From: Muribaculaceae bacterium
Lineage (GTDB): Bacteria; Bacteroidota; Bacteroidia; Bacteroidales; Muribaculaceae
NCBI GenBank assembly: GCA_029063895.1
Contig: JAIDNJ010000057.1
Location: 4,896 to 68,895 of the forward strand
Reading direction: 5' to 3'
Length of the DNA: 64,000 nucleotides
Part shown: positions 12,564-35,210 of the stretch, in pieces
Layout: the number at the start of each line of letters is the position of its first letter
How positions within the stretch are numbered: position 1 is the first letter of the stretch
Program-made: the position numbers and the translations under genes
Notes under the pieces: generated by a model
The model's database searches: none
What the model was told of the DNA's origin: nothing
Seen by the model: the letters and a program-made list of their open reading frames with translations, nothing else

Positions 12564-12706
12564 GATTAGATAGTTGTTATTTGATACTCGCGTTGCCGCT
12601 GCTATGATTATTAGCTTACAATGCAAAGTTAGTAAAAATCATCAGATAATCAATAATCTACGCGATTTTAATCTCTATCAATTTTGATTTTTATTGTCAA
12701 AATTCA

Positions 12707-13738: not shown

Positions 13739-13834
13739 ATCACAAAATTTTTGACAAAAATAGAAAAATAATTCCTGCTGCGCAAATCAACTGCGCACTC
13801 ATCCGGAACCTTTGCATCATAAATTTATATAACT

Positions 13835-15034
13835 ATGATAATAGAAGGAAAAACGACGGCGGCACGAATATTTACCGATAATATTGAAGACGCCGCTCTT
13901 CAATGGGTCAAAGACCTTTGTGATCAACCAGCATTTGAAGGAATACCGATTGTCCAGATGCCCGATGTTCATGCCGGCAACGGGTGTAACGTCGGGACTG
14001 CATATCCGGTGGGCGCATATGTTAATCCCGACCATGTGGGGGTTGACATCGGGTGTACCATATCGATGTACAGGCTCTCCTCACCGGTCTGTCCCGACGA
14101 TTATGCCCTGCTTAACCACCGTATCCGTGAGGCGGTGCCGATGGGTACCGATATATGCGCTAAAAATTCGATGAATGAAAAAGAACTTTTCCGATTTCTC
14201 AATTCGCGGTATCAGAAGGCACGTTCGGCTGCCCCTGATCTAATCGACGAAATACGGCGCATCGATGACAGGTTTATTTCTGATTTTTGTCGTCGCGTCA
14301 AGTTGCAGGAGGGTAGCTTCTATAAAAGTCTCGGCACCCTCGGGGGTGGAAATCATTTTATTGAATATGGCGAAGGCGTGACGACCGGTGACGGCTGGCT
14401 TTCAATTCATTGTGGCTCTCGAAATCTTGGTGTAAAGGTTGCCAATTACTGGCATAATGTGGCCCGGAATCCTAAACGGGCGAGCTTTATCGGTTATCTG
14501 TGGGGTGATTCGTTGCGAGGATATCTCTCTGACATGATTATAGCACAGGCTTATGCACTATATAATCATCAGATAATTGGCGACCGAATATTTGCAATAT
14601 TAAAAAAGCTTTGTAAGTCCAAATGTGTTGAGTCAATCATTACCATCCACAACTACATATCGGTGACCGACGACTGTCCCATACTTCGCAAGGGGGCAAT
14701 TGATGCGTCCGATGGGTTGAAAGTCGCTATTCCGTTCAACATGCGCGATGGCATAGCAATATGCCGTGGCCGCGGAAACGAGCAGTGGCTCAACTCGGCA
14801 CCTCACGGCGCCGGCCGATGCATGAGCCGTGCGCAGGCACGTAAAAACATATCGCTTGACGATTTTGAGCAGCTTATGTCGGGCATATTTTCAACCTCAG
14901 TAGTGGAGACTACACTCGACGAGTCGCCTGGAGCTTATAAACCAACCGATGAAATCATCAGGCTTATAGAACCGACGGTTGAGATTCTAACACTTGTCAA
15001 GCCAAAACTTAACATTAAAGATACCGGAAAATGA
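13835..15034 (+). CDS. rtcB: RNA ligase RtcB family (RtcB2 type, paired with PrfH)
   Basis: Motifs MPDVHAG, GGGNHFIE, HCGSRNLG and the C-terminal PHGAGR are present. Confidence 0.9.
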   Translation: MIIEGKTTAARIFTDNIEDAALQWVKDLCDQPAFEGIPIVQMPDVHAGNGCNVGTAYPVGAYVNPDHVGVDIGCTISMYRLSSPVCPDDYALLNHRIREAVPMGTDICAKNSMNEKELFRFLNSRYQKARSAAPDLIDEIRRIDDRFISDFCRRVKLQEGSFYKSLGTLGGGNHFIEYGEGVTTGDGWLSIHCGSRNLGVKVANYWHNVARNPKRASFIGYLWGDSLRGYLSDMIIAQAYALYNHQIIGDRIFAILKKLCKSKCVESIITIHNYISVTDDCPILRKGAIDASDGLKVAIPFNMRDGIAICRGRGNEQWLNSAPHGAGRCMSRAQARKNISLDDFEQLMSGIFSTSVVETTLDESPGAYKPTDEIIRLIEPTVEILTLVKPKLNIKDTGK

Positions 15035-15666
15035 AAGAAATAAAACAAAATGATAATACAAAATTTAAATACATACAGATAACCGCCGGGCGCGGTCCGG
15101 TCGAGTGTGCCCGTGTCGTTACCCTTGTTGCACGTGAACTGATAAAAGCCGCTCCAACGCTTTCAATAGCCGACAGTGAGCCTCACAATCAGCACGATGA
15201 TTGCTACATGTCGTTGACATTGGTTAGCGACAGTCCGTTGTCACCGGCTTTTGTTGCCGAGTGGGAGGGAACGATGCAGTGGACAGCTACCCGCAATTCC
15301 TACAGGCCCGGGCATAAACGTGTCAACTGGTTTGTCGGCATCAGTTTTTTTGATGAAGTTGAACTGCCGACGATAAGCGATGGTGACATCGTTTATGAGT
15401 CATGTCGTTCGGGTGGTAAAGGTGGCCAAAATGTCAACAAAGTTGAGACAGCTGTGCGAGCCGTCCATCTCCCAACCGGTCTGTCGGTGAAATGCTCTGA
15501 CCAACGTTCCCAACACCAAAATAAAGTTATTGCCCGTCAGCGGTTGATGCTCAAACTCCATGCCCGCCAGACTGCTTGTAAAAACGAGTCCCGTGCCGAG
15601 CGCTGGACCTGTCACGACTCGCTTGAGCGCGGAAACCCCGTCAAGAAATTCAGAGGACCGCTGTGA
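15031..15666 (+). CDS. prfH: Peptide chain release factor H-like protein
   Basis: The GGQ motif (SGGKGGQNVNKVETAV) sits in a short RF-like protein. An ATGA overlap links it to rtcB. Confidence 0.85.
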   Translation: MKEIKQNDNTKFKYIQITAGRGPVECARVVTLVARELIKAAPTLSIADSEPHNQHDDCYMSLTLVSDSPLSPAFVAEWEGTMQWTATRNSYRPGHKRVNWFVGISFFDEVELPTISDGDIVYESCRSGGKGGQNVNKVETAVRAVHLPTGLSVKCSDQRSQHQNKVIARQRLMLKLHARQTACKNESRAERWTCHDSLERGNPVKKFRGPL

Positions 15667-15791
15667 ATTTATAATATTGTAGTGTTGATTTACATTCAGA
15701 CTTCAATGTTAATGAAAATAACTATATTTGTATTACGAAATTTTAATTGAATAATCGGAGCCATGTATCACAAAATGATACATCAGAGAAA

Positions 15792-15799
15792 TAATTTTG
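15792..15799 (+). promoter_or_regulatory. Candidate -7 promoter box (TAATTTTG)
   Basis: Matches TAnnTTTG and lies 17 nt upstream of the ATG at 15816. It is preceded by an 8-bp inverted repeat, ATGTATCA (15763-15770) and TGATACAT (15776-15783). Confidence 0.35.
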
Positions 15800-15815
15800 C
15801 AAAAAATAAATAACT

Positions 15816-16337
15816 ATGAATAAAACGATGATTCTTGCAATAGGTGGTGCCGGTTGCAATATCGCTGAAACTTTTGTTGGTAATGCATCGGTACAGTGGC
15901 TAAAAGATGCAACTTATGTTTTTGCCGACAGTGATTTGAGTCATATAACCCAACTAACCGACAAGGGTTATAAGACTATTACGCTTCATAACGATTCTGA
16001 TTGTTTTAAGCCGGAAATTTTTGACAGGATCAAAAAGATTTATATTCTTGCCGGATTGGGTGGAATGACCGGAAGTGCATACATTGGTAAAGCAGTCGAA
16101 AGTACCAGGGCTGTGGGAATCGATGACATTACTGCGATTGTCACTACTCCATTTTTATTTGAGGGAGAAGCGGTGATTGAGAAAGCTGTAAAAACAATCG
16201 AGTCAATATCGGGTATTCGGGTAAAAGTATTTAATAACTATGCTCTACTGCAAAAATATACTGATACTGACTTAAAAAGTGCATTTGGATATTTTGAACG
16301 GGAGATGTTGAAGTTTATGGAATCGGAAGAAATCTGA
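15816..16337 (+). CDS. Truncated FtsZ/tubulin-like GTP-binding domain protein (173 aa, N-terminal domain only)
   Basis: IGGAGCN (15840-15860) resembles the FtsZ T1 loop. AGLGGMTGS (16050-16076) resembles the tubulin signature. VTTPFLFEG (16140-16166) resembles FtsZ VTxPFxFEG, and VFNNYALL resembles IPNDKLL. The protein ends in the H7 region and has no C-terminal domain or T7 loop. Confidence 0.6.
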   Translation: MNKTMILAIGGAGCNIAETFVGNASVQWLKDATYVFADSDLSHITQLTDKGYKTITLHNDSDCFKPEIFDRIKKIYILAGLGGMTGSAYIGKAVESTRAVGIDDITAIVTTPFLFEGEAVIEKAVKTIESISGIRVKVFNNYALLQKYTDTDLKSAFGYFEREMLKFMESEEI

Positions 16338-16930
16338 TGAAAATACTACACTTATCTGACACTCACGGGTGCCATCATAGACTTGGCCAACTGCCCTATA
16401 CCGATGTCGTTGTACATTCAGGCGACTTTACAATGAATGGTAGCCAGAGTGAAGCTATCGATTTTCTTAATTGGTTCTGTGATTTGCCCCATCGTCATAA
16501 AATTTTCATTTGCGGGAACCACGATGAGTGTCTTTATGGTGCCAATATTGACGGTCTCGACAATAATGTGCATTACCTTTGCAACTCGGGTATAGAGATT
16601 GAGGGAGTGAGATTTTATGGCGTGCCTATGTTCATGGGTGATTGTATAACAGATCGACAGACCCGCAACTATGAGCGTATTCCCCAGGATACCGATGTAC
16701 TCATCACTCATTGCCCGGCATACGGTATTCTTGATGTTGACGATAATATTCATTATGGCTCGGAAGAAATCTTGTCAAAGCTATCGGCTGTCCGCCCAAA
16801 AGCTCATCTTTTCGGTCATATTCATGTTCAACACGGATTAACAACTGTCGATGGTACGATTTTTTCAAACGGAGCGATTATGAATATCGATTACACAAAT
16901 CTGAACTCTCCCGCTGTTATTGAAATATAA
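16337..16930 (+). CDS. Metallophosphoesterase (calcineurin-like, Metallophos_2 type)
   Basis: Motifs LSDTHG, SGDF, GNHD, THCP and GHIH are present. The start overlaps the upstream stop (TGATG at 16335-16339). Confidence 0.85.
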   Translation: MKILHLSDTHGCHHRLGQLPYTDVVVHSGDFTMNGSQSEAIDFLNWFCDLPHRHKIFICGNHDECLYGANIDGLDNNVHYLCNSGIEIEGVRFYGVPMFMGDCITDRQTRNYERIPQDTDVLITHCPAYGILDVDDNIHYGSEEILSKLSAVRPKAHLFGHIHVQHGLTTVDGTIFSNGAIMNIDYTNLNSPAVIEI

Positions 16931-22571: not shown

Positions 22572-22754
22572 TTTTAAAATGTCTGCGTAATAATTGATTT
22601 AAATTTAAGTGTTTACAAAGTTACGCATAAAAAACAAGATAGCGAAGGAAGTAGGAGATAAAAAAATCACTTATAAAATTGAAATTTTTAATGCTGTATC
22701 GCTGAATGATACACCATCGCTCTAATTTTGCAGCGTAACTTAAAAAACATCAAA

Positions 22755-23270
22755 ATGGAACCTATCACAAAAAATGAATTTCTCAACTCAGTTCTTGAAG
22801 CCGAAGCATGGAAAGAGATTTCTCAGTCAGAATCGCTCAGCATGGATATGCTTGAAAAATATGTCGATAAACTCGATTGGGATGAAGTTAGCGGCAATAC
22901 AAAAGTGCTTTGGACAATCGACGGTATCAACAAATTTATCAATCGCATTGATTGGGACGAGTTCTCGCGCAGTTGTTCCGATCACCTCATTTGTGAGTCG
23001 GTACTCATGAAATTTTCCAATCGATGGGATTGGAAAGCGCTCTCCAATCGAGATTGTTTCTACAATAACTGGAGCCTCCTCGAAAAATTTACCGACAAAG
23101 CCGATTGGTCAGAAATCATCACAAATTGGAGCATCGAGAAGCCACTTGAATTTTTCGCACGATTCCAGCAATACATCCCCATGTCAAAGCTCCAGGACTC
23201 TCGCCTATGGAACGAAATGGTCGAGGCGCGTGCCAAAAGCATTATGCAGGAAGCTGTGGGGATAAGGTGA
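22755..23270 (+). CDS. Hypothetical tandem-repeat protein (about 5 repeats of a DW-x2-(L/V/F/I)S motif)
   Basis: The repeats are KLDWDEVS, RIDWDEFS, RWDWKALS and KADWSEII, spaced about 25-31 aa apart. ATG at 22755 is preferred over the TTG track start at 22728. Confidence 0.5.
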   Translation: MEPITKNEFLNSVLEAEAWKEISQSESLSMDMLEKYVDKLDWDEVSGNTKVLWTIDGINKFINRIDWDEFSRSCSDHLICESVLMKFSNRWDWKALSNRDCFYNNWSLLEKFTDKADWSEIITNWSIEKPLEFFARFQQYIPMSKLQDSRLWNEMVEARAKSIMQEAVGIR

Positions 23271-23520: not shown

Positions 23521-25512
23521 GTGGAATCTACAAAAAGTGAAAATTTAATAGAGCAAAAAGCCATTGGAGACTTACTATGTGGCTATGAGTTCCATATTCC
23601 TCCTTATCAGAGAGGTTATCGCTGGACAAAACAGCAAGTGGTAGATCTTTGTAACGACTTGTTGGAATATGCTCTTAGGCCGTTATCGGATATAGCGGAT
23701 ACAAAAACTTTTTACAGTCTTCAACCTTTGGTTGTAAAATATCGTAATGAGAAGTCATTTGACGTAATCGATGGACAGCAGCGACTGACCACAATCTACA
23801 TATTGTTTCGCTTCTTGATGGCTGAATTGGGACCAACACCTGATAGGTTAAAACGTATACAACGAGATGTAAACCTCTATTCAATTATCTATGAAACTCG
23901 TAAAGATGATACTGATTTTATTGCAGATTTAGGTTCTTATGGCTGGGAAGAACGACTTAGTGCGTGGGCAATGGATATTGATATAGCTCATATTTATAAT
24001 GCATATCAATATATGAAAGAATGGCTATATCCTAAGGATGAGAATGAAAGATATTCAAGTGTAGCTACTTGTAGACGATTTATAAAAGAGGGAATGGACT
24101 CATATGAGATTGCACTTAAACTCCTGACTCTTCTAAAAAATAAAAAGGACACTACAAAACCCGAGGGAAATGCACAGTTTATTTGGTATCAATTATCCTC
24201 AGATAAAGATGCTATAGAAGAGTTTATTGTTGAGAATAAGGGAAAAATAGGTCTCAGCGATACTGAAAGAATCCGAGCTTTGTTCTTATATCGAGAAGAT
24301 AAAAACAATGAGGTCGATGTGGCTCAACAAATAAGCATTGCTAAGGATTGGGATGAGATAGAGACAACACTTCAAGATTCAGGATTTTGGTCTTTTATTA
24401 GTTCCGAAAATTTGGAAGAGGGTAGAATATCTCTATTATTTCAGTATATTAATAATATAGATACTCTTAAAGATAAAAAAGTATCCAGTGATCTATATCG
24501 ATTTTACGAGCAGAAGTTTGCAGAAAAAGAAGGGAATGTAGCTATGAGGGAATGGGAAAGAATTCTCGAAGCTTTTCGAATGCTAAAAAACTGGTATAAG
24601 GATGCGTATTTGTTTAATATAATAGGTCTTCTCACACGGGAAGGTATTAGTCTAAATGATATTGCACATATCTACTATAGCCAAGATGTAAAAACAACGG
24701 CACAGTTTGTTATAGAACTTAACAAAATTGTTAACAGAAAATGTCTTCCCCGGTTAGGATCAGAAGTTAAGGAAGGTGAAGAATCTCACATAAAGACCGG
24801 TCAGAATGATAAATTTGGATTTAAATTTGGAGAGCTCCATCTTAACCTCAATTTTAATGACCATAAAGATAAAATTCGTTCATTGCTTTTGTTTTTAAAT
24901 ATTCTGGTTTTAAATGAGCAAATTGAGAATCATAGAAAGAATGATATGGCCTATAGTGGTAATGAGTATCGTTTTGCGTTTGATTTGTTTGACAAAGAGA
25001 CGTGGGATGTCGAGCATATAGATTCGGCAACCACCAATCAACTTAAATCAGAGTCCACAAGAGCAATGTGGATACATAATGCTGATGCGGCTATAAAGCA
25101 TTTTTACAAGAAAGACTACCCTGCTTTTTTGGTAGTAAAGGAAAAATACGAGTCAGGAGAAACAAACTTTGAGACTCTCCACAAAAAAGTTATTGAGTTA
25201 ACGGATATCGAATCATCCGATGAGGAAATGAAGAATTGGATAGGGAATCTAACACTTCTTAACGCCAATATAAATCGTGGATATGGAAATGATATTTTTG
25301 CTGCTAAATGTATGAAGATTGACGAAAAGGTTAACGCTGGTGCGTTTGTTCCGGTATGTACACGCATGGTGTTTTATAAGGCAATACCAAATAATGAAAA
25401 TTCAGCAAGCCACCTCGAATGGAATTTCACCGACAAGAAAGCATATCATGATTGGATGCTGAAAAAGATTATGGATTTCAAAAAAAGATTCCCACTCAAA
25501 ATAGAATACTAA
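23521..25512 (+). CDS. GmrSD-like type IV restriction-type protein (N-terminal DUF262, C-terminal DUF1524 His-Me finger)
   Basis: The DUF262 motifs are IPPYQRGYRW and DGQQRLTT (23770-23793). The DUF1524-like region is WDVEHID ... GNLTLLNANINRGYGN (25012-25290). The apparent start is GTG. Confidence 0.8.
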   Translation: MESTKSENLIEQKAIGDLLCGYEFHIPPYQRGYRWTKQQVVDLCNDLLEYALRPLSDIADTKTFYSLQPLVVKYRNEKSFDVIDGQQRLTTIYILFRFLMAELGPTPDRLKRIQRDVNLYSIIYETRKDDTDFIADLGSYGWEERLSAWAMDIDIAHIYNAYQYMKEWLYPKDENERYSSVATCRRFIKEGMDSYEIALKLLTLLKNKKDTTKPEGNAQFIWYQLSSDKDAIEEFIVENKGKIGLSDTERIRALFLYREDKNNEVDVAQQISIAKDWDEIETTLQDSGFWSFISSENLEEGRISLLFQYINNIDTLKDKKVSSDLYRFYEQKFAEKEGNVAMREWERILEAFRMLKNWYKDAYLFNIIGLLTREGISLNDIAHIYYSQDVKTTAQFVIELNKIVNRKCLPRLGSEVKEGEESHIKTGQNDKFGFKFGELHLNLNFNDHKDKIRSLLLFLNILVLNEQIENHRKNDMAYSGNEYRFAFDLFDKETWDVEHIDSATTNQLKSESTRAMWIHNADAAIKHFYKKDYPAFLVVKEKYESGETNFETLHKKVIELTDIESSDEEMKNWIGNLTLLNANINRGYGNDIFAAKCMKIDEKVNAGAFVPVCTRMVFYKAIPNNENSASHLEWNFTDKKAYHDWMLKKIMDFKKRFPLKIEY

Positions 25513-25513
25513 A

Positions 25514-28144
25514 ATGAGTATATCAAAATTACATACATTAGAGAAACTCCTGTCTGATGGAGTCGATATTTCGGTCAACGATAATGAGGATAGAAATTAT
25601 CCGATTGCTGGCATCCTTATTCCTCGCATACAGCGCCCCTATGCTCAGGGACGCAGAAACAAGAATATTAGTGATATTCGTCGTAATTTTGTCGAGAATC
25701 TGTTGTCTGCAGTGTCATCAGAGGAAGCGTGTACACTTGAACTCAGTTTTATTTTCGGTTCATTGCAAAAAGTTAACTGGGATAATTCAAGACGTATTAA
25801 TGAAGCCCTTGAACTTCTTGATGGTCAGCAGCGACTTACTACGCTCTTTCTTCTCCATTGGTATCTTTACAAAAAAGAGAGTTCAAAAGACTTACCAGAA
25901 TGGTTATCTCGATTCCGATATGAGACGAGAGATTCTTCTACAACATTTTTATTGAAAATTACAGATAATTCAATCGAGATTGACTTGAATGAGATTGTAA
26001 AGGGGAACGATACCAAATCAGAGGATATAATAAAACCATCCGAGGCTATTACACGCCTTATATGGTTCAATAATGATTTCCGTTGTGACACTACTGTAAT
26101 GTCGATGCTGTGTATGCTGGATGAAATCGATTCACAATATAAAGATCTTGATAAAAAGGGTAAGACTCAAGGGCGTATGCTTCATAAGAATCTGGGACGG
26201 ATACAATTCTATATCAGATTACTTCTTAAATTTGACATGTCTGATTTACTGTTTATTAAAATGAACAGTAGGGGATTGCCTCTCGTACCTTTTGAAAATT
26301 TCAAGGCGGATGTGATGAAATATATGGAGAAGGCTAAGACATATGACGAGTTAGTGTATGTAATTAATGACAATCCATCTCCTTTTCATTTTTATTTTGC
26401 ATCTCAAGTTGACACTAAATGGGTGTATATTTTCTGGGACCGACCTGCTATTCCTATCAAAGGGTCGATAATAGAACTTGATGATAAACGTACAGGTGCG
26501 CGCTTTTTTCGTTTTTTTAACCGGATGCTTTTCACGAAACTTGCGGTAGACTATGCTGAAACTGAAGATTCTACTGAAATGGAAGAATTGGAATCTGCAT
26601 GTGAATTCTTTCGTACCATCCCAGAAATCTCCATGAATGAGCATTTAACAGATTGGAACACTAAATACTTGCCTGCGATTTCCCGTTGGAATGGAGGTGA
26701 GGACTATTTCCGTCAAAGCGCTAAAGTTCTAAATGTTCTATCCGACAATTATACCATGGGAATTAAATTGAGAGATGCAATTAGGAAATCACCATTCATA
26801 TCGACGTCTAAATTTGATATATTTTCAAAAGCCAATGATGCTAACGGGACTTTTACTTATGCTCATAGAGCATTTTTATCCGTAATCATTGACTTTATTA
26901 TACAGATACCAGAAGAATATACTATTACATCTTCGATTGTTGCAAACAACCTCAGAAAATTGATTCGTGTGCTTCATAATGTAATAGAGTATACAGAAAT
27001 AGATAAACAAAATATCCTTGATTTTATCAAGGCTTTTCATAAAATACTCCTCTCCATTGAAGTGCAATCTGGAGATTTTTATTGTGCTATCGCAAAATAT
27101 GATGGCAACTTTGAGTGGATTAAGGCAGAAGCTGCAAAGGCTAAAGATATTTGTCGGGATGGTAGGTTTGAAGCAGTGATGGTCCGTGCTGAAGAACATC
27201 CGATTCTCCGCGGTCGCATTACCCCAATATACAAACAAGGAGAAATGACAGTAGAGCAACTTTCAGAGTACGTTGATGAATTATTTCGAATATTCCCTGT
27301 TGATAAAAAAGGAATATGTTTGGGTATCTCTAATGACTACGCTCTGGAAGACTCTCATCTGTTGATTCGCGCCATGATGAGTTGTCTTACGAGCTGGGAT
27401 AAGCTTGTTGGAACTTATGTCACAGAACGAGGTTTTGTCATACGAGGGGGAGAACCAGTCAATAGCCAGTATCTGTCAAATATTCTATTAGGGAAGGGTA
27501 GGGCTGAGAGTCTGTTTCAAAGGTACTTTTTTGAATATTTTGGTAAAAAGGATTTTGGTAAATATCTTGTTGAAGTAATTGAAAATGCTGGTACTCATGA
27601 AATAGATGACGAAAGAACAAGAGATGTTTACAACAGATTGGTGACCGAATCAGACTCATGCAAACTTTATAACTGGATAAAAAGCCGAGAGAAAGATCGC
27701 CCGGATAAAGAGCCCGTTGTTAGATGGCTTAGAGATGCGGGAATTCTCAATTATGACGGTACTAATTATGACCGTCTGGTATTAACTACACCTCGTCGAT
27801 ATGTTATTCCTGCTATAATCCACATAACAGGAGCGCACTTTGAAGATAAAAGTCAAGAAGGACATGTACAGAGATTTGGGGAATATTTTGCTTATGATGT
27901 GAGTGTTGTTAAAGATATTAAAACTAATATGGGACTTGATATAACAATTAAAGCAACGTTTTATCCAAATGGTTTGTGCAAAGTTTATGTGAAGTCAACA
28001 TCTCAGGAAGTTCACAACGCGCTTAAAACTGACCATAATAAGGATGAGAGTTCTTATTGGCATTCTTATAAAGATGAGTCATCCGCACAAGTGATTGGTC
28101 AAAAGATAAATGATTGGGCAGCCCTGTTGCAAACTGGATGTTAG
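25514..28144 (+). CDS. DUF262 domain protein with a long uncharacterised C-terminal region
   Basis: The DUF262 motifs are IPRIQRPYAQG and DGQQRLTT (25820-25843). The gene starts 1 nt after the upstream stop. I recognise no clear catalytic motif in the remaining roughly 600 aa. Confidence 0.7.
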   Translation: MSISKLHTLEKLLSDGVDISVNDNEDRNYPIAGILIPRIQRPYAQGRRNKNISDIRRNFVENLLSAVSSEEACTLELSFIFGSLQKVNWDNSRRINEALELLDGQQRLTTLFLLHWYLYKKESSKDLPEWLSRFRYETRDSSTTFLLKITDNSIEIDLNEIVKGNDTKSEDIIKPSEAITRLIWFNNDFRCDTTVMSMLCMLDEIDSQYKDLDKKGKTQGRMLHKNLGRIQFYIRLLLKFDMSDLLFIKMNSRGLPLVPFENFKADVMKYMEKAKTYDELVYVINDNPSPFHFYFASQVDTKWVYIFWDRPAIPIKGSIIELDDKRTGARFFRFFNRMLFTKLAVDYAETEDSTEMEELESACEFFRTIPEISMNEHLTDWNTKYLPAISRWNGGEDYFRQSAKVLNVLSDNYTMGIKLRDAIRKSPFISTSKFDIFSKANDANGTFTYAHRAFLSVIIDFIIQIPEEYTITSSIVANNLRKLIRVLHNVIEYTEIDKQNILDFIKAFHKILLSIEVQSGDFYCAIAKYDGNFEWIKAEAAKAKDICRDGRFEAVMVRAEEHPILRGRITPIYKQGEMTVEQLSEYVDELFRIFPVDKKGICLGISNDYALEDSHLLIRAMMSCLTSWDKLVGTYVTERGFVIRGGEPVNSQYLSNILLGKGRAESLFQRYFFEYFGKKDFGKYLVEVIENAGTHEIDDERTRDVYNRLVTESDSCKLYNWIKSREKDRPDKEPVVRWLRDAGILNYDGTNYDRLVLTTPRRYVIPAIIHITGAHFEDKSQEGHVQRFGEYFAYDVSVVKDIKTNMGLDITIKATFYPNGLCKVYVKSTSQEVHNALKTDHNKDESSYWHSYKDESSAQVIGQKINDWAALLQTGC

Positions 28145-28191: not shown

Positions 28192-28722
28192 CTATCTTAC
28201 CGGGTCCCCGCAATACTGTCGTCTTCCGCACTTGGGGCAGTGCTCTCCGCGCCACACGCTGTCAAACTGCTCCATTGCGGCCTCGACGAGGGTAGGTTCG
28301 TTGGTAAGGATTCCAGCCTCAAAGTTACGGCGCGTGCTGCTCTTCATACCTATACCGGCGCCGGTCAGATTGGCCGAGCCGATGTAGGCAGTTTCATAGT
28401 CAAAGATGAGCATCTTGAAGTGGACACGCGGGCACAGCATCCGTTCCAACGAGGTTCTCAGGGCCGGGTAGCGGTCAAAATCCTCCTGGAAAGCCGGTCC
28501 CGGCTCCTTGGCGTGTATAAGCCGTACTTCAATCCCGCGTTTCAATAAACGTGCAATAACCCCGAGAAACGGTTCGGTCGAGCTCCCCGCTTTCACATGC
28601 AGGTCTTTGATGTCGGCAGTGCCAATCCAGAGCGACTTTCGTACACCGGCTACTCTGGAAAGCACTTCGTTATAGTGATCATCATTCGTAATAAAACGGA
28701 TGAAAGGGGGATTGTTATTCAT
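28192..28722 (-). CDS. Phospholipase D-family (single HKD) nuclease, Nuc-like
   Basis: A canonical HxKx4Dx6GSxN motif, HFKMLIFDYETAYIGSAN, lies at 28369-28422. The C-terminus HCPKCGRRQYC is a possible zinc knuckle. Confidence 0.85.
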   Translation of the reverse strand: MNNNPPFIRFITNDDHYNEVLSRVAGVRKSLWIGTADIKDLHVKAGSSTEPFLGVIARLLKRGIEVRLIHAKEPGPAFQEDFDRYPALRTSLERMLCPRVHFKMLIFDYETAYIGSANLTGAGIGMKSSTRRNFEAGILTNEPTLVEAAMEQFDSVWRGEHCPKCGRRQYCGDPVR

Positions 28723-29776
28723 ATTCTATATAATGTTTTATGTCGCGCTCGGCTTGTAGAAAACGGTTGGCGGTGTGAAGTATTATACTTCGGGCGCCGT
28801 CATCGTGAGCCAAAAGATCAGTGTGGGTGGCAAACTCTGTCAGCATATTGAATACTGTCCAGACGTTTAGGTCAGTCTTGACCAATTTTGCTTGTTTCTT
28901 AATGTCAACACCACGAGTGCTGAAATAGTTCTCATATTTTCGTGTTGGCAAAAAGGAATCAACAGTTTCGGCCGACATATTCGTTTGGTGTCCCGTCAAC
29001 TCTCGACTGATACTTTGCAATTCAAATAGAGAGCATGTGGTATTCATGGCTTCCAAAGCCTTTTCTTCATAGGTCCGGAATCCGATTTTAGGCAACTGAC
29101 GACTTTTGGCCAGTTCAATCATGCGATGCACTTCTGACGGATTAAATGAATAAAGTTTCGTTTGCTGTTTCTTCACAGTCGCCACCGCTCCATTTGTACA
29201 TACAAGACGTGTATAGAAGTTGCCAAGCTCAATCTCGTCGCCGGTCCAATGAAGATAGGCACCATCGGTTATCGTGTCCTCTCCTGGCGCAAACTGCTGT
29301 ATGGTTGGAGTCCGGCTTTGCATGTATATCATGATGTCAAACAGTCCGTTGCTGCGAACGTCCATTTTCTCAAGTTCATAACGGGCATCTTCCATAAACA
29401 GTTGGGCAAAGTCAAAAAATTGTTGAGGAGGGATGAACTCCTGTTTTGGAATTAAAATGTTAACAATATGTCTTGTTTCAGGGGATGCGATGATAACCAC
29501 ATCCTTATTGTTGGCAAGACTGTTGGCATCAGAAAGGAAGTTTCGGAAATTAACCTGTCCGACATCACCCGAGGCGTTTCTCACCATGTTGAGTTGAGCT
29601 CGGCTTGTACCAATTTGTCGATTAAGTGACTCAATCACCGATGGTTCGAAAACAAGATCCATACCGTTGAGGTCAAACAACGGTCCGTCGATTTGTCTAA
29701 GGTCGCCCAATGCGACTTTTTTGTGCGGAAATAGCTGCTGTTCTATTTTAGCAGATTGGGAAATGAAATTTGGCAT
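28715..29776 (-). CDS. DUF932-like (phage/plasmid-type) protein
   Basis: RLVCTNG (29189-29209), preceded by TDGAYLHW, resembles the DUF932 RxxCxNG core as I recall it. The start overlaps the upstream stop (TAATG) and the end overlaps the PLD gene by 8 nt. Confidence 0.55.
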   Translation of the reverse strand: MPNFISQSAKIEQQLFPHKKVALGDLRQIDGPLFDLNGMDLVFEPSVIESLNRQIGTSRAQLNMVRNASGDVGQVNFRNFLSDANSLANNKDVVIIASPETRHIVNILIPKQEFIPPQQFFDFAQLFMEDARYELEKMDVRSNGLFDIMIYMQSRTPTIQQFAPGEDTITDGAYLHWTGDEIELGNFYTRLVCTNGAVATVKKQQTKLYSFNPSEVHRMIELAKSRQLPKIGFRTYEEKALEAMNTTCSLFELQSISRELTGHQTNMSAETVDSFLPTRKYENYFSTRGVDIKKQAKLVKTDLNVWTVFNMLTEFATHTDLLAHDDGARSIILHTANRFLQAERDIKHYIEYE

Positions 29777-30654
29777 TACTGATTATCTATATTTTCAGAG
29801 TTATTAAATAGTTCGTCAAAACGATCGGCATATTTGCGCAAACTGTTTGCAACCTCAGTCTGCATGCGTCTGATTCGGGCGTCTTTTTCATATCGTTCTT
29901 CGTCAAACCGTACATCACCTGTCGTGCTCAAATCATAATATAGCCTAACGCCTACATCGCCGCGCCTATGCTTTGAGAATACCACATATCGGTCCGAGAA
30001 AACATTACGCGGATTGTCAAAACGTAATTCCATCATTGCGGTGATACTGTGTTTCAGTCGGTTGGAACCTATAAAGTTACCCGATTTTGTTACTTGTTGA
30101 ATTGTTAGAAAGGTCGTGTTTAAACCTCTTTGGTTTTGAGCTTTATTATTTCGCTTTATCATTGCCAGCATCCGATTTTCGGCCTCCTTCATGCGTAAAT
30201 TCTCTTCGTCCTTTATGATGCCCTGAAGTTCATAAAATGAATCAATGGCTACAATATCCCAGCCAAGGTCAAGAGTAGCTTCTATTTCAGTGAGGTTATG
30301 AGAACAATCATTACCCGAAAAACTACTCTCAATAAATAAGATATCGATATACTTAAATTTAGGGTAGCGCTGAACATAGATGGCAAGGTCTATTTCGTTC
30401 ATTTCGGCGCTTACAAATAATATACGGGCGTTGGGGTAATAATTCATGATGTTGGCAAGCATATCCAGCACAATAGTTGTTTTGCCCGAGCCAGGATCGC
30501 CAATAATCATGTAATTTACACCCTTGGGGAGACCATTATAGCTACATAGCAATCGGTCGAGTACCGTATGGGTATCGAAGTTTATGAATAGCGACTTGTC
30601 AAAATTCAAGTCGCACATTCTTACAATATTCGGGATTCTGACATCTTCAATCAT
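29776..30654 (-). CDS. RadA/Sms-like RecA-fold ATPase (no Zn-finger or Lon-like domain)
   Basis: Walker A is GDPGSGKTT (30475-30501) and Walker B is WDIVAIDSF. VTKSGNFIGSNRLKHSITAMMEL resembles RadA HVTKxGxxAGPxxLEHxVD, and SKHRRG stands in place of KNRFG. The track start at 30702 is TTG, so ATG at 30654 is preferred. Confidence 0.75.
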   Translation of the reverse strand: MIEDVRIPNIVRMCDLNFDKSLFINFDTHTVLDRLLCSYNGLPKGVNYMIIGDPGSGKTTIVLDMLANIMNYYPNARILFVSAEMNEIDLAIYVQRYPKFKYIDILFIESSFSGNDCSHNLTEIEATLDLGWDIVAIDSFYELQGIIKDEENLRMKEAENRMLAMIKRNNKAQNQRGLNTTFLTIQQVTKSGNFIGSNRLKHSITAMMELRFDNPRNVFSDRYVVFSKHRRGDVGVRLYYDLSTTGDVRFDEERYEKDARIRRMQTEVANSLRKYADRFDELFNNSENIDNQ

Positions 30655-30707
30655 GATAGCAAAGTTAGAGCTATGATATGCCGGATTGCGACATAGACTC
30701 AATAAAT

Positions 30708-30929
30708 TTAGTCATCTTCAAATATATGCTTATCTATTTCTCTCACCATGTCATCAATAAGCCTGACAAAGTGGCGGTGCTGAATGGCAACCCCAATCAC
30801 GATACCCATCAATCCTTTTACATAGAATGAGTGGGGAGGTCCTATAAAATATGCTAACCCACCAAGAATTATCGGCAGAATAAGTAATCGCAAATATTTG
30901 ACATATAAACAAAGCAATTTGTATAACAT
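30708..30929 (-). CDS. Small membrane protein (73 aa, two predicted TM helices, acidic C-terminus)
   Basis: Two hydrophobic segments are LRLLILPIILGGLAYFIG and GLMGIVIGVAI. It has an ATG start and is the first gene of the minus-strand cluster. Confidence 0.5.
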   Translation of the reverse strand: MLYKLLCLYVKYLRLLILPIILGGLAYFIGPPHSFYVKGLMGIVIGVAIQHRHFVRLIDDMVREIDKHIFEDD

Positions 30930-31020: not shown

Positions 31021-31028
31021 CAAAAGTA
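31021..31028 (-). promoter_or_regulatory. Candidate -7 promoter box (TACTTTTG on the minus strand) for the 30929-28192 operon
   Basis: The reverse complement of CAAAAGTA matches TAnnTTTG. It lies about 90 nt upstream of the ATG at 30929. Confidence 0.3.
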
Positions 31029-31093: not shown

Positions 31094-32143
31094 TTATGAG
31101 CTATAATTATCCGTTTTATTAGTCGAAATTGTGATTATTTGAAGCGCAATTTCATCTTTGACATCATTATCTACGCCTTTAATTAGTGTAGGACGTATGT
31201 CTTTAACTGTGAATGTCGGGTTAAGAGCGTCATATAGCCGGTTATCTTCATCTACGGTCAAAGAGTATTTGTCGCTTGTGTAAGCCACAACAATAACTTC
31301 TGTCGCTCCCTTGCATATATCCTCCAATGTCGGGCTAAAATTTGCAAGCAAATCAATTAGATAATCCACTCGGTCAGACTTCCCGTAAACATGAGTTTCT
31401 CTCCAGGTCTCATAAATCTCCCCGGCGTTAAAAATCGTTGATTCTATATTTTTTACAGGTACATTGGTTCGCTTGACTAAAGTATCTAACAGATGCTGAC
31501 GCTTTTCGAGTTTTTTCAGTTGATTAATACGCTTATCTATACGATATTGACGTTTCCGTTTACTACGATTTAAATGTAATCGACGTCTGCCGAGATTGCG
31601 CCATTCATCCGATGAAAGGTAATAGGTCATACGATCGGGTTCATCCTTTAGCTGGCGTTTCAGTTCTTTCCGGGTTTCCGCCGAGACATAAGGCAATATG
31701 CTTTTAATCTGAAGCTTCTTTACCAATAGTCCATATTTAGTGAATGACTTACGATCTATTTTATTATTAAATAGCTCCTTGGTCCGACGAGGGGTAAAGC
31801 CATAAAAAGTCATGCCCCAAAGAATGGCTCCTGCCAGTTCGGCATCGGTAAATGGATTATATTCAGGTTTGATTACGTCTTTACCCACCGTGTTGTGCCA
31901 AAAATCGCCTTCAACATTTAGGGCAAGAAGTGGCAACGAATGGAGCTCATACCATTCTTCTCTTGGCATAACGTCAAAAGTTACCTCGCCTCCGTGGCCC
32001 TCAAAATTGGTATTACGGATAATATCAAACGCCTCCTTATAACCGGCAAGACATTTTATTGAGCCTTCGTTACGGTGAGTATTTTGTAGTGCCTTGACGA
32101 TTTCGTCAAAACTAAGGGAATTGAATAATTCTTTTACGGTCAT
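31094..32143 (-). CDS. Hypothetical protein with a strongly basic central helical segment
   Basis: It has no catalytic motif. The central segment is RRRLHLNRSKRKRQYRIDKRINQLKKLEKRQ. ATG at 32143 is preferred over the TTG at 32164. Confidence 0.5.
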   Translation of the reverse strand: MTVKELFNSLSFDEIVKALQNTHRNEGSIKCLAGYKEAFDIIRNTNFEGHGGEVTFDVMPREEWYELHSLPLLALNVEGDFWHNTVGKDVIKPEYNPFTDAELAGAILWGMTFYGFTPRRTKELFNNKIDRKSFTKYGLLVKKLQIKSILPYVSAETRKELKRQLKDEPDRMTYYLSSDEWRNLGRRRLHLNRSKRKRQYRIDKRINQLKKLEKRQHLLDTLVKRTNVPVKNIESTIFNAGEIYETWRETHVYGKSDRVDYLIDLLANFSPTLEDICKGATEVIVVAYTSDKYSLTVDEDNRLYDALNPTFTVKDIRPTLIKGVDNDVKDEIALQIITISTNKTDNYSS

Positions 32144-32277
32144 AGCTATATCATTTTCGGGCAAAGTTAGCTATGAGGTGACGCGAATCGTGATACAGCA
32201 AACAAAAAGTGCAAAATAGGATATCAAACAAGTTTTACAGTAGGTTTGTTTTAATTCTAAATTATAAAAAGAAAACG

Positions 32278-33006: not shown

Positions 33007-33717
33007 TCATAACTCCTCCCCATAGCAGCCTTCGCTGAAATATTCAGTATCGAGCCACTCATCCTGCACCCTGCCGCCGTTACGATTGACAGTTGCCTTT
33101 AACCATTTCAAACTGTGAGGCTCAAGTTCAGTGTAATCATTTGCCAATATTCTTAACCGTGAATCATTGCTGACCGAGATTTTTCTCAAATTCCAACAAA
33201 GGGAGATGTCGAGTTCCTCGATATTGGAGTTATTAGTCAAGTCAAGAGATTTAAGATTTTTACTTGACCTGCATATAACCTTTTTTAATCCTGGCATAGA
33301 AGACAAGTCAAGATTAGGGGCATAATACTCGGTGACAACAAGTGTTTCAAGGTTGGGACATCCACTGAAATCAACATTGGAGAGCTGGGTGTATTGCAGA
33401 TATGTCAACGCGGGACAATCCTTAAAGACTACATGATTAACATCTGTTTCCCATGTGCCGTCGACAAGAGCTAACAATGAGTCGCTGTCGTCCGACAAAA
33501 ACTCAATCTCAAATGGCAACTCTTTCCCTTCGGCCGATTTGTAGTAGTGAGCAACGCGGCTCATGCTGTAGCCGGGATGATGACATAATGTAGAGTGAGT
33601 GCCGTCGCCCCAGTGTACTTCAATTGAAGTTCCCGGCTTCAACATGGCGTCAAACCACACATGATTACCCTCGGTCCACTTCAAAGTATTAATTGATATT
33701 TGTAATAAATGTTTCAT
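33007..33717 (-). CDS. Leucine-rich-repeat protein
   Basis: The C-terminal half has LRR-like units of about 22-24 aa (CPNLETLVV, LKSLDLTNNSNIEELDIS, NLRKISVSN). A TAATTTTG box lies at 33736-33743 on the minus strand. Confidence 0.6.
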   Translation of the reverse strand: MKHLLQISINTLKWTEGNHVWFDAMLKPGTSIEVHWGDGTHSTLCHHPGYSMSRVAHYYKSAEGKELPFEIEFLSDDSDSLLALVDGTWETDVNHVVFKDCPALTYLQYTQLSNVDFSGCPNLETLVVTEYYAPNLDLSSMPGLKKVICRSSKNLKSLDLTNNSNIEELDISLCWNLRKISVSNDSRLRILANDYTELEPHSLKWLKATVNRNGGRVQDEWLDTEYFSEGCYGEEL

Positions 33718-33819
33718 ATCTTATGCTTTTTTGCACAAAATTAGAAACGACCTGTCCCAAATATCGATACACGATTAATAAAATTTCTCCGGTTTAGATT
33801 TTTATGAAAAATGTTGAAG

Positions 33820-34308
33820 TTATAAAAGTTTCATTGCAATAGCTGCGCAGGCTTCGGCATCGGCGAGGGCGTGGTGGTGGTTCTCCATATTGTAGCCACA
33901 GGCGGCTGCCGAGAGGTGGAGCTGATGGCTCGGCAAGTCGAGACAGCGGCGCGAGGCGGCAAGGGTGCAATGAAATTCATAGCCGGGATATTCCATCCCA
34001 TATTCCTCAAAGGCGGCTTTGAGACAGCTCTCGTCAAACGGACGGTTGTGAGCCACAAGCGGCAGCCCCTTGATTTTGTCAACGACGCGTGCCCACACCT
34101 CGGGAAAGCGGGGTTGACCGTCGGTGTCGGCACGGGTGAGACCGTGGACTTCGGTCGTCCAGTAGGTATAGTAATTGGGGGTCGGTTCAATCAGGCTGTA
34201 AAATTTGTCGACAATCATGCCGTTGCGCACAATCACGACGCCCACACTGCATACGCTTGACCGCCGGCCGTTGGCTGTCTCAAAATCTATTGCTGCAAAA
34301 TCAGTCAT
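33820..34308 (-). CDS. 3'-5' exonuclease, DEDDh (DnaQ-like) family
   Basis: The DEDDh motifs are AIDFET (DxE), HNRPFD and HHALADAE (Hx4D). Confidence 0.85.
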   Translation of the reverse strand: MTDFAAIDFETANGRRSSVCSVGVVIVRNGMIVDKFYSLIEPTPNYYTYWTTEVHGLTRADTDGQPRFPEVWARVVDKIKGLPLVAHNRPFDESCLKAAFEEYGMEYPGYEFHCTLAASRRCLDLPSHQLHLSAAACGYNMENHHHALADAEACAAIAMKLL

Positions 34309-35210
34309 CAGTCCTCGTTATACAGTTCATACATATCTGTAATCCAGCTTTTCATGGTCTTTCGCAACGAGGGCGGAGACATCACCTCAATCCTCCCGCC
34401 GGCCTGGAGCAATTTCATTACAAAATCGTAGGTGGGGGCGACGTACAGTTCAAAGTCGGCATACTCGCCACAGTCCTCGATGAGCCGCTGGCTGTGGTGT
34501 AGCGGCAGCGATTTGAGGTAGTGTTTGTGGGCCTCGTTGGCGCGGATGACGATGCGCTCCGGCTTTTCGTCATACCCGATTACAATGCCATATCTGGTCG
34601 CAAAAAACTCGTCGGCCGAGAAGTTTTTGGGCAATCGGAACGTGTCTGAAGTCGGCTCGACACTCTCCAGCCTGTCGAGTCCATACACCTTGATTTCGTT
34701 GCGGTTGTTGCGTCCCAGCACATACCATCGGTTCTCAAACAGTTTTACACAGTAAGGCTCGACGGGAAATGTAAAACTCTTTGACATATTGAATGGCCGG
34801 TAGGTGATGCTGATGACACGGTTTTCCTTCATTGCCATGAGTATAGTCGTGAGATAGTCGCGTCCCGAGGGAATCTCGTCGACGATAATGCGGTCTTTGA
34901 GCGAGAGGTTCTCGCCGATGATGTTGCCCACAGCCCACGAGTCAAGCATCCACTTTTTCAGCCTGTTGTCGTCGATATTCTCGGGGTTGGCTATGAAATA
35001 GCAGTAACCTCCTGTCGTCTGGCACTCGATGTCGATGCCAAACTGGTCGGCAATGGCCCGGCGCCAGCGGTTGAACGTGGCGCGGTGAAGCGGACGGCAG
35101 TCGCTTAAATCTTTGTTGCGTTCCCACAGGTCCGACAACTCTTTGTGGGAAATTCTGTCGGCGCGGCGAATTGTTTCAATCAGCCATGTATATTTTTGCA
35201 GTTGGTTCAT
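34308..35210 (-). CDS. WYL domain transcriptional regulator
   Basis: There is an N-terminal HTH-like region, and the WYL core is VEPYCVKLFENRWYVLG. The track start at 35243 is TTG. ATG at 35210 is preferred because a TATCTTTG box (35231-35238, minus) lies upstream of it. Its stop overlaps the exonuclease ATG. Confidence 0.75.
   Translation of the reverse strand: MNQLQKYTWLIETIRRADRISHKELSDLWERNKDLSDCRPLHRATFNRWRRAIADQFGIDIECQTTGGYCYFIANPENIDDNRLKKWMLDSWAVGNIIGENLSLKDRIIVDEIPSGRDYLTTILMAMKENRVISITYRPFNMSKSFTFPVEPYCVKLFENRWYVLGRNNRNEIKVYGLDRLESVEPTSDTFRLPKNFSADEFFATRYGIVIGYDEKPERIVIRANEAHKHYLKSLPLHHSQRLIEDCGEYADFELYVAPTYDFVMKLLQAGGRIEVMSPPSLRKTMKSWITDMYELYNED

What the first reader, a model, noticed from the sequence alone, without database searches (positions are those of the whole stretch)
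28192..30929. Candidate undescribed four-gene system: 2-TM protein, RadA-like ATPase, DUF932-like protein and HKD nuclease
Four minus-strand genes form one compact unit. (1) A 73-aa protein with two hydrophobic helices. (2) A RecA-fold ATPase most similar by motif to the RadA/Sms core: Walker A GDPGSGKTT at 30475-30501, VTKSGNFIGSNRLKHSITAMMEL, and SKHRRG in place of KNRFG. It lacks the RadA zinc finger and Lon-like domain. (3) A 353-aa protein with a DUF932-type RLVCTNG core at 29189-29209. (4) A 176-aa single-HKD phospholipase-D nuclease with a perfect HxKx4Dx6GSxN motif (28369-28422) and an HCxxC...C tail. Genes 2/3 share TAATG and genes 3/4 overlap by 8 nt, which implies translational coupling and stoichiometric assembly. 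A TACTTTTG box precedes the cluster. The operon is convergent with the GmrSD-like pair inside an AT-rich island. An ssDNA or recombination-intermediate-sensing ATPase combined with a PLD nuclease effector and a membrane component resembles a defence or anti-mobile-element system. I cannot match this gene combination to any named system. The alternative is a remnant of a plasmid/ICE leading-region module, since Nuc-type PLD nucleases and DUF932 proteins are also plasmid-borne.
Basis: partly seen in the sequence, partly recalled or inferred. Interest (0 to 1): 0.85.

Follow-up and report, generated by a model that had tools for sequence, protein, structure and literature searches.

The report
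ATPase–DUF932-like–PLD nuclease defence-island operon
A tightly coupled RecA-type ATPase, fast-evolving DUF932-fold protein and small PLD nuclease recur as one operon in gut Bacteroidota, usually beside a WYL regulator and known anti-phage genes, so this is a real, uncharacterised candidate immunity module, though its function is untested.

Summary

The unit is not four genes.
- The strict core is a pair. The RecA-superfamily ATPase is followed directly by the 353-aa DUF932-fold protein in 69 of 71 species-level loci.
- The pairing persists in distant relatives with 28-53% ATPase identity.
- The single-HKD PLD nuclease lies within 5 kb in 24 of 31 loci with full flanks. In 20 of those it sits directly after the 353-aa gene.
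- A WYL-WCX (BrxR-like) regulator lies within 5 kb in 18 of 31.
- The 73-aa 2-TM ORF is specific to this lineage and is not part of the conserved unit.

The context is a shuffled defence island (GmrSD pairs, McrBC-like, IetA-like, ShosA-like and DEDDh genes). Integrases are almost absent, and there are no close homologues in 72,556 plasmid or 50,697 phage records.

The 353-aa protein diverges about three times faster than its partners yet keeps an invariant R-C-N / S-E / T polar set, which suggests an enzyme.

No PADLOC v2 model matches the 353-aa protein, and no named system matches the combination.

Most likely reading (about 0.5): a WYL-regulated anti-phage or anti-mobile-DNA module. No function was tested.

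The parts
29776..30654 (-). Core gene 1: RecA-superfamily (RadA/KaiC-like) core-only ATPase, 292 aa from the ATG. The ORF extends to a TTG at 30702.
   Evidence: Pfam KaiC PF06745 scores 29.3 bits against a cut-off of 26.6. RadA and RadB NCBIfam models give about 1e-5, far below their cut-offs. Invariant features are Walker A, E100, D154, QQ202-203 and KHRRG. Present in 80 species loci.
28715..29776 (-). Core gene 2: 353-aa DUF932-fold protein, translationally coupled to the ATPase (TAATG).
   Evidence: It follows the ATPase in 69 of 71 loci. The AF2 model has pLDDT 83.6. Foldseek against BFVD finds phage DUF932/TIGR03299 proteins at E 4e-16 to 1e-9. Nothing comparable in PDB. Invariant residues are R190, C193, N195, S249, E252 and T313.
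28192..28722 (-). Frequent third gene: single-HKD PLD-family nuclease with a C-terminal HCxxC...C knuckle. It overlaps the 353-aa gene by 8 nt.
   Evidence: PLDc_2 at 5e-13. Within 5 kb in 24 of 31 loci, directly downstream in 20. Its only near-full-length PDB relative is Nuc 1byr, at a weak E of 0.09.
30708..30929 (-). 73-aa hydrophobic ORF with two segments. Lineage-specific and probably not part of the conserved module.
   Evidence: Singleton in the clustering. The only homologue outside the species is in L022. Gene callers call it in same-species contigs.
31021..31028 (-). TACTTTTG, a Bacteroidetes -7-type box upstream of the 73-aa ORF. A second box, TAACTTTG, lies at 30660-30667(-) just before the ATPase ATG.
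   Evidence: The motif is frequent in the window (77 copies against 41 expected), so this is weak evidence.
34308..35210 (-). WYL-WCX (BrxR-like) transcription regulator, the most consistent accessory partner of the operon.
   Evidence: Pfam WYL 7.9e-13 and WCX 9e-8. PADLOC WYL 1.2e-28. Within 5 kb in 18 of 31 loci and often directly adjacent.
33820..34308 (-). DEDDh exonuclease, which forms a recurrent WYL>EXO pair.
   Evidence: RNase_T 2.4e-18. PADLOC PDC-S48 9e-32. Present in 22 loci.
31094..32164 (-). DUF6557 protein, a recurrent island neighbour.
   Evidence: Pfam 9.8e-8. Present in 14 loci and directly beside the operon in several.
33007..33717 (-). LRR protein, a cargo gene found between the WYL gene and the ATPase.
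   Evidence: LRR_4 1.1e-6. In L109 its homologue is the only gene between the WYL gene and the ATPase.
23521..28144 (+). Pair of GmrSD-family (DUF262) type IV restriction-like genes, convergent with the operon. A separate module of the same island.
   Evidence: Pfam GmrSD_N. PADLOC HEC-06/Orf5/SspE. A GmrSD pair occurs in 11 of 29 loci.
22728..23270 (+). About 171-180-aa repeat protein of unknown function that marks the left edge of the island.
   Evidence: Cluster of 14 loci. No Pfam hit.

Best explanation
The finding is one copy of a conserved Bacteroidota module. Its obligatory core is a RecA-superfamily (RadA/KaiC-like) ATPase translationally coupled to a DUF932-fold protein. A Nuc-like single-HKD PLD nuclease usually follows in the same operon, and a WYL-WCX (BrxR-type) regulator usually lies beside it.

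I read it as an anti-phage or anti-mobile-DNA module that sits in a defence island.

**Proposed working (all steps inferred).**
1. The WYL regulator keeps the operon low until a nucleic-acid cue appears.
2. The ATPase, which carries a KxRxG arginine-finger motif like the ring-forming RadA, DnaB and KaiC proteins, assembles with the DUF932-like protein on ssDNA or on replication or recombination intermediates of an invader.
3. The DUF932-like protein supplies specificity and probably a catalytic activity of its own, given its invariant R190, C193, N195, S249, E252 and T313.
4. The PLD dimer degrades the nucleic acid.

**Shown:** gene identity, coupling, co-occurrence, context and evolutionary rates.
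**Not shown:** any activity, complex formation or phenotype.
For: **Pairing.** The ATPase is followed by the 353-aa gene in 69 of 71 species loci, with gaps mostly -4 to +11 nt. The pairing is kept in distant relatives L102-L105 at 28-53% ATPase identity.

**Partners.** In 31 loci with full flanks, a PLD lies within 5 kb in 24 (20 directly downstream, 3 directly upstream) and a WYL gene in 18.

**Minimal cassette.** In L109 the order WYL-LRR-ATPase-353aa-PLD sits between housekeeping genes.

**Defence neighbours.** Known defence families occur in at least 20 of 29 loci: GmrSD in 11, DEDDh/PDC-S48-like in 11, IetA-like in 6, ShosA-like in 3 and McrB-like in 2. The distant locus L102 sits among Z1, HATPase_c_3, PLD and DruA genes.

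**Not on mobile elements.**
- Tyrosine integrases occur only in L054 and L002/L003.
- The plasmid collection gives only true radA at 26% identity.
- The phage collection gives three weak hits, none with a DUF932 gene beside it.

**Evolutionary rates.** Median identity to the window copy is 67% for the ATPase, 65% for the PLD and 29% for the 353-aa protein. The 353-aa identity tracks ATPase identity with no discordant pairs, so the unit is inherited together and one partner evolves fast, as specificity or conflict proteins do.

**Likely active site.** A polar residue set is invariant across 171 distinct members.
Against: - There is no experiment, and guilt by association is the main argument.
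- The ATPase and PLD are unusually conserved for defence genes (62-90% and 55-77% identity across families).
- The PLD is missing from about a quarter of loci, with no consistent substitute effector.
- DUF932-fold proteins are otherwise typical of phages, plasmids and ICEs.
- Many neighbours are nucleic-acid repair or processing genes rather than classical immunity genes: RtcB, DprA-like, SLOG, SprT-like, DEDDh, FtsK-like and DnaE-like.
- The ATPase structural model was poor (pLDDT 54), so its oligomeric class is inferred from motifs only.
Confidence: 0.5

Rival explanations
1. WYL-controlled nucleic-acid damage or repair module. The RadA-like ATPase, the DUF932-like protein and the PLD nuclease process damaged DNA or stalled recombination intermediates of the host itself. 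This would parallel the ssDNA-sensing WYL regulators PafBC and DriD, which switch on DNA-damage regulons (established knowledge, not tested here).
For: - The ATPase is strongly conserved and its nearest relatives are RadA, RAD51 paralogues and KaiC.
- Recurrent neighbours include DEDDh exonuclease, RtcB(+PrfH), SprT-like, DprA-like, SLOG, metallophosphoesterase, an FtsK-like gene and a DnaE fragment.
- WYL adjacency is frequent.
Against: - Distribution among species is sporadic, and the flanks differ from locus to locus.
- The 353-aa partner diverges quickly.
- The module co-locates with type IV restriction genes and other defence families.
- The local gene order is shuffled, as is typical of defence islands.
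Confidence: 0.2
2. Remnant or cargo of a mobile element. The genes are an establishment, anti-restriction or recombination module of a plasmid, ICE or phage, now fixed in chromosomal islands.
For: - The DUF932 fold matches phage proteins.
- DUF932 genes are reported on integrated plasmids and ICEs.
- Nuc-type PLD nucleases are plasmid-borne (pKM101 Nuc, PDB 1byr).
- Core-only RecA-like ATPases give weak matches to phage Sak4, UvsX and DnaB families.
- FtsK-like and DprA-like neighbours are present.
Against: - No close homologue of the ATPase exists in 72,556 plasmids or 50,697 phages.
- Only 3 weak 353-aa relatives were found in IMG/VR, and none has the ATPase beside it.
- Integrases are nearly absent within 10 kb.
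- Cassettes lie directly between housekeeping genes.
- In L002-L004 a mobile element interrupts the PLD gene rather than carrying it.
Confidence: 0.15
3. The four genes are one membrane-anchored four-component system, with the 2-TM protein as a functional subunit.
For: - The 73-aa ORF is on the same strand, 54 nt upstream of the ATPase ATG, and is hydrophobic.
- A positional homologue exists in Duncaniella locus L022 (pairwise E 5e-7).
- A different small membrane protein (Transgly_assoc) lies upstream in L001 and L012.
Against: - A small hydrophobic ORF lies upstream of the ATPase in only 9 of 73 loci, and those 9 represent 3 unrelated families.
- The ORF has no family hit in any library.
- A TAnnTTTG box lies between it and the ATPase ATG.
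Confidence: 0.05

Closest known systems
RadA/Sms and the KaiC/RadB branch of the RecA superfamily
   Same: RecA-fold core with Walker A and B, a catalytic Glu and a KxRxG arginine-finger motif (KHRRG here, KNRFG in RadA). The best long alignments are to RadA (PDB 5lkm and 8rxc), RadB and KaiC.
   Different: It lacks the N-terminal zinc finger and the Lon-like domain and is only about 290 aa. Scores are far below family cut-offs (TIGR00416 gives 24 bits against 403). Its obligatory partner is a DUF932-like protein.
DUF932 / TIGR03299 'phage/plasmid-like protein' family
   Same: Similar length of about 350 aa, the RxxCxNG motif, and a fold match to phage DUF932 proteins (Foldseek E 4e-16 to 1e-9, TM about 0.5).
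   Different: The Pfam score is below the gathering threshold (19.6 against 23), and only 7 of 16 diverse members hit at all. It forms a small separate clade of 549 representatives. That clade is chromosomal, always follows a RecA-like ATPase, and is not on phages or plasmids.
Nuc (pKM101) and DrmC-type single-HKD PLD nucleases
   Same: One HKD motif in a protein of about 170 aa, which implies a dimeric active site. Weak hits to DrmC, MkoB, NucT and DpdK models. Near-full-length alignment to Nuc 1byr.
   Different: All scores are far below the equivalog cut-offs. It has no signal peptide. It carries an extra conserved HCxxC...C tail. No DISARM, Mokosh or Dpd partner genes are present.
BrxR-family WYL regulators of defence islands (PMC9122601)
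   Same: A WYL plus WCX regulator adjacent to variable defence cargo, with GmrSD-family genes next to it.
   Different: The cargo here is not BREX. The ATPase-DUF932-like-PLD operon is not mentioned in that paper.
Ring ATPase plus effector defence pairs (HerA-SIR2 and HerA-DUF4297; recalled from memory, not tested)
   Same: A two-gene core of an oligomeric P-loop ATPase tightly coupled to a partner that is probably an enzyme, located in defence islands.
   Different: The ATPase clade differs (RecA/RadA-like rather than FtsK-HerA) and the partner fold differs. No homology was detected.

Membership tests
RadA/Sms | N-terminal C4 zinc finger | tested here: not met
   The protein starts about 50 aa before Walker A and has no Cys cluster.
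RadA/Sms | RecA-like ATPase core with Walker A and B | tested here: met
   GDPGSGKTT and IVAIDSF are invariant. The alignment to RadA covers residues 44-207.
RadA/Sms | KNRFG motif | tested here: not met
   The motif here is KHRRG and is invariant in the family. The distant homologue in L102 has KNRKG.
RadA/Sms | C-terminal Lon-protease-like domain, and the equivalog score | tested here: not met
   The protein ends about 60 aa after the motif, in a predicted long helix. TIGR00416 scores 24 bits against a cut-off of 403.
KaiC-type ATPase domain (PF06745) | Pfam gathering score | tested here: met
   29.3 bits against 26.6, covering residues 48-246. This is domain-level only, because true KaiC has two such domains.
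DUF932 (PF06067) | Pfam gathering score | tested here: not met
   19.6 bits against 23. Seven of 16 diverse members hit at E no better than 4.5e-4.
DUF932 (PF06067) | Shared fold with bona fide DUF932/TIGR03299 proteins | tested here: met
   Foldseek against BFVD gives E 4e-16, 7e-11 and 1e-9 to phage DUF932 proteins, using a model with pLDDT 83.6.
PLD superfamily nuclease (Nuc-like) | HxKx4Dx6GSxN motif and the PLDc_2 gathering score | tested here: met
   The motif lies at residues 101-118. PLDc_2 scores 49.4 bits against 27.
DISARM | DrmC equivalog score, plus DrmA helicase and DrmB (DUF1998) nearby | tested here: not met
   NF038319 scores 38.6 bits against 133. No DrmA or DrmB hits among the window neighbours.
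MADS | Full-length mad8 match and the other mad genes in the operon | tested here: not met
   The mad8 hit covers only the P-loop region, residues 57-164. An unrelated McrB-like protein hits the same model. MADS is an 8-gene operon, and none of its other genes is present.
Any PADLOC v2 system | A model matching the DUF932-like component | tested here: not met
   No families for the window protein. One of 16 diverse members hits at E 0.009.
Plasmid/ICE leading-region or prophage module | Location on plasmids or phages, or next to integrase, transfer or structural genes | tested here: not met
   Cassettes lie between housekeeping genes. Transfer genes were not searched with dedicated models.
BrxR-type WYL regulator (neighbour gene) | WYL plus WCX domains | tested here: met
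   WYL 7.9e-13 and WCX 9e-8. DNA binding and ligand were not tested.
Anti-phage defence system (functional class) | Protection phenotype against phage or mobile DNA | not testable with these tools
   Only genomic association is available.

The most novel reading that the evidence does not exclude
The ATPase-DUF932-like pair is the motor and enzyme core of a previously undescribed immunity system of gut Bacteroidota, with or without the PLD nuclease. Its DUF932-fold subunit would be a new kind of enzyme, built around the invariant R-x-x-C-x-N-G, S-x-x-E and T/H/D residues. That would give the first functional handle on the DUF932 superfamily carried by many phages, plasmids and ICEs. Stand-alone mobile-element DUF932 proteins could then be counter-measures or ancestors of the host system.
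Probability: 0.3. Interest if true: 0.8.

Novelty: new variant of a known kind. Interest (0 to 1): 0.6.

Why it matters
If the module is a defence system, it adds a Bacteroidota-specific one to the known repertoire. That matters for phage therapy and for engineering gut Bacteroidales.

It would also link a RecA/RadA-type motor to immunity. And it would give DUF932 its first testable function. DUF932 is a domain of unknown function that is widespread on mobile elements and has no solved structure.

The very uneven evolutionary rates within one operon point to a clear experimental target for specificity, the 353-aa protein.

Even if the function turns out to be repair rather than immunity, the obligatory ATPase-DUF932 pairing is new information about both families.

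Tried and rejected
- **Sequence search of the 353-aa profile against PDB:** nothing below E 0.2.
- **Foldseek of the 353-aa model against PDB:** the best hit is CapZ at TM 0.2, which is not meaningful.
- **AF2 model of the ATPase:** the alignment was shallow and the model poor (pLDDT 54). The Foldseek hits to RAD51 paralogues, RadA and KaiC are therefore only supportive.
- **dN/dS between close relatives:** dS is saturated, so only dN is usable. Values are 0.08-0.12 for the ATPase, 0.18-0.22 for the 353-aa gene and 0.15-0.21 for the PLD.
- **Cassette swapping of the 353-aa gene against a conserved ATPase:** rejected, because no discordant pairs exist.
- **A conserved fifth gene in the slot between the WYL gene and the ATPase:** rejected, because the genes in that slot are unrelated to one another.
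- **mad8/MADS lead:** rejected as a generic P-loop match.
- **Megaphage ATPase homologue LR756508:** it has no DUF932 partner.
- **Strain-level presence/absence using the flanking S9 peptidase:** no exact match is on record.
- **Sigma-70 promoter and terminator scan:** counts are no higher than in shuffled sequence.
- **Literature searches for DUF932, PF06067, TIGR03299 and yfjQ:** no functional study was found.
Full report
**Observation**

All four minus-strand ORFs are present at the stated coordinates.
- The Walker A site is at 30475-30501.
- RLVCTNG is at 29189-29209.
- The HxKx4Dx6GSxN motif is at 28369-28422.
- The TAATG junction and the 8-nt overlap check out against the translations.

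TACTTTTG lies at 31021-31028(-). TAnnTTTG is frequent in the window, with 77 copies against about 41 expected. A second copy sits immediately before the ATG at 30654.

Homologues of the ATPase are 280-293 aa, and gene callers in same-species contigs use that ATG. The TTG start at 30702 is therefore probably an over-extension.

The convergent GmrSD_N pair and the low-GC stretch (33-38% over 23-28 kb) are confirmed.

**Component identities**

*PLD*
- PLDc_2 gives 5e-13, above the Pfam cut-off.
- There are weak matches to DrmC, MkoB, NucT and DpdK, all far below their equivalog cut-offs.
- The only near-full-length solved relative is the pKM101 Nuc endonuclease.

*ATPase*
- It passes the Pfam KaiC-domain threshold at 29.3 bits against 26.6.
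- It aligns weakly to RadA and RadB.
- It lacks the zinc finger and the Lon domain.
- It carries KHRRG where RadA has KNRFG.
- The AF2 model was poor (pLDDT 54), but its best PDB matches were RAD51 paralogues, RadA helicase and KaiC.

*353-aa protein*
- It scores below the DUF932 threshold at 19.6 bits against 23, and only 7 of 16 diverse members hit at all.
- A good AF2 model (pLDDT 83.6) matches phage DUF932/TIGR03299 proteins in BFVD at E 4e-16 to 1e-9.
- It matches nothing in PDB.
- It is therefore a divergent member of the DUF932 fold, for which no solved structure was found in PDB and no functional study in the searched literature.

*73-aa ORF*
- It has no family hit.
- Its only relatives are in same-species contigs and one Duncaniella locus.

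**What is conserved**

A scan of one genome per species with an ATPase alignment returned 80 loci. Nearly all are labelled Bacteroidota: Muribaculaceae, Prevotella, Alistipes, Porphyromonas, Bacteroides, Salinivirgaceae and Flavobacteriales. A few records are labelled Bacilli, Lachnospiraceae, Spirochaetaceae, Oscillospiraceae, Acutalibacteraceae or Opitutales. I called ORFs in these loci, clustered them and ran HMM searches on six-frame translations.

- The 353-aa gene directly follows the ATPase in 69 of 71 loci that have enough downstream sequence. Gaps are mostly -4 to +11 nt.
- Among 31 loci with at least 5 kb on both sides, a PLD lies within 5 kb in 24. It is directly after the 353-aa gene in 20 and directly before the ATPase in 3.
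- A WYL gene lies within 5 kb in 18 of the 31. Neither partner is present in 3.
- The 2-TM ORF is a singleton in the clustering.
- Distant members of the 353-aa family found by an exhaustive profile search (549 representatives at E<=1e-3) still have a RecA-like ATPase immediately upstream (L102-L105).
- The smallest cassette, L109, is WYL-LRR-ATPase-353aa-PLD, flanked by housekeeping genes.

**Context**

The neighbours of the window copy are themselves the most frequent neighbour clusters elsewhere, but in shuffled order. They include the WYL gene, the DEDDh exonuclease, the LRR and DUF6557 genes, the GmrSD pair and a 171-aa repeat protein.

Other recurrent neighbours:
- a second type of GmrSD pair
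- HEC-05-like DUF262 proteins
- an IetA-like AAA ATPase (2e-30)
- a ShosA-like DprA protein (3.5e-54)
- McrB-like and McrC-like genes
- RtcB
- a metallophosphoesterase
- a SLOG protein
- a SprT-like protein
- FtsK-like and FtsK-gamma pieces
- a DnaE fragment
- FtsZ/tubulin-like proteins

At least 20 of 29 loci carry a recognised defence family.

Tyrosine integrases occur only in L054 and L002/L003. The ATPase has no close homologue in the plasmid or phage collections. The few 353-aa relatives in IMG/VR lack the ATPase.

This argues against a plasmid, ICE or prophage module and for a defence-island setting. The window itself comes from a Muribaculaceae genome (names).

**Evolution**

Median identity to the window copy is 67% for the ATPase, 65% for the PLD, 37% for the WYL protein and 29% for the 353-aa protein.

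| ATPase identity | 353-aa median identity | PLD median identity |
|---|---|---|
| 80-85% | 59% | 72% |
| 70-75% | 34% | 62% |

Across 2343 locus pairs the 353-aa identity falls monotonically with ATPase identity, with no discordant pairs. The genes are inherited together, and one partner evolves about three times faster.

Despite this, R190, C193, N195, S249, E252 and T313 are invariant in 171 distinct family members. G196, W306, N310, H318 and D345 are nearly invariant. This looks like an active or ligand-binding site.

**Mechanism**

My best reading (about 0.5) has four steps, all inferred:
1. The WYL regulator controls expression.
2. The RadA/KaiC-like ATPase works in a stoichiometric complex with the DUF932-like protein on invader ssDNA or on replication or recombination intermediates.
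3. The DUF932-like protein provides specificity and perhaps catalysis.
4. The PLD dimer is the usual nuclease effector.

Only the genomic facts are shown.

Rival readings:
- a WYL-controlled repair or damage module (0.2)
- a domesticated mobile-element module (0.15)

**Comparison and novelty**

No PADLOC v2 model matches the 353-aa family. The mad8 hit of the ATPase is a generic P-loop match. DISARM, Mokosh and Dpd partner genes are absent.

The closest conceptual analogues are WYL/BrxR-regulated defence islands (PMC9122601) and ring-ATPase-plus-effector pairs. The latter comparison is from memory and untested.

I rate it a new variant of a known kind: an ATPase-plus-nuclease defence-island operon with an unprecedented DUF932-fold core partner. 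Interest is 0.6. The module is real, widespread in gut Bacteroidota and uncharacterised, but its function is unproven, and candidate systems of this general type are numerous.

Noticed in passing
window 10887-16930: A second accessory cluster. It contains an SLFN_AlbA_2+HTH protein (10887-12626, -) and a WYL-WCX regulator (12707-13738, -) divergent from RtcB (13835-15034) and a PrfH-like RF-1 protein (15031-15666). It also has a 173-aa tubulin/FtsZ-like protein (15816-16337) and a metallophosphoesterase (16337-16930). The same families recur beside the ATPase-DUF932 pair in other species.
   Followed up: partly
L102 6844-7953 (distant homologue locus): The partner ATPase of a distant DUF932-like protein carries a C-terminal ribosomal L7/L12 C-terminal domain (Pfam 3.4e-26). 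The gene was not called in the source record. The island also holds Z1, HATPase_c_3, PLD and DruA genes.
   Followed up: partly
L006-L009, L014, L017, L020, L093-L097; window 15816-16337: Islands around the operon repeatedly encode short stand-alone pieces of essential housekeeping proteins: an FtsK motor (239 aa), FtsK-gamma (64-83 aa), a DnaE fragment (about 360 aa) and FtsZ/tubulin-like proteins (144-378 aa). This is unexplained. A decoy or bait role is only an idea.
   Followed up: no
L002-L004 about 11201 versus L001/L012: In some strains the PLD gene is cut after codon 49 by DNA that starts with a tyrosine integrase. It is intact in otherwise identical contigs.
   Followed up: partly
L106 5967-6668 versus window 33717-33820: A same-species contig has an extra 233-aa gene between the DEDDh exonuclease and the LRR gene. 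The window lacks it, so this is strain-level cargo turnover inside the island.
   Followed up: no
window 33820-35210 and about 10 other loci: WYL>DEDDh exonuclease forms its own recurrent two-gene unit, sharing a 1-base start/stop overlap (ATGA) in the window. The exonuclease matches PADLOC candidate PDC-S48 over its N-terminal half (9e-32).
   Followed up: no
window 31094-32164; L037, L045, L054, L061, L078: A DUF6557 protein sits directly next to the operon in several species, after the PLD or after the 353-aa gene. It could be a further accessory component.
   Followed up: no
L029, L030: Two Muribaculaceae MAGs have the ATPase with an upstream WYL gene but no DUF932-like gene after it. These are the only exceptions to the pairing.
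   Followed up: no
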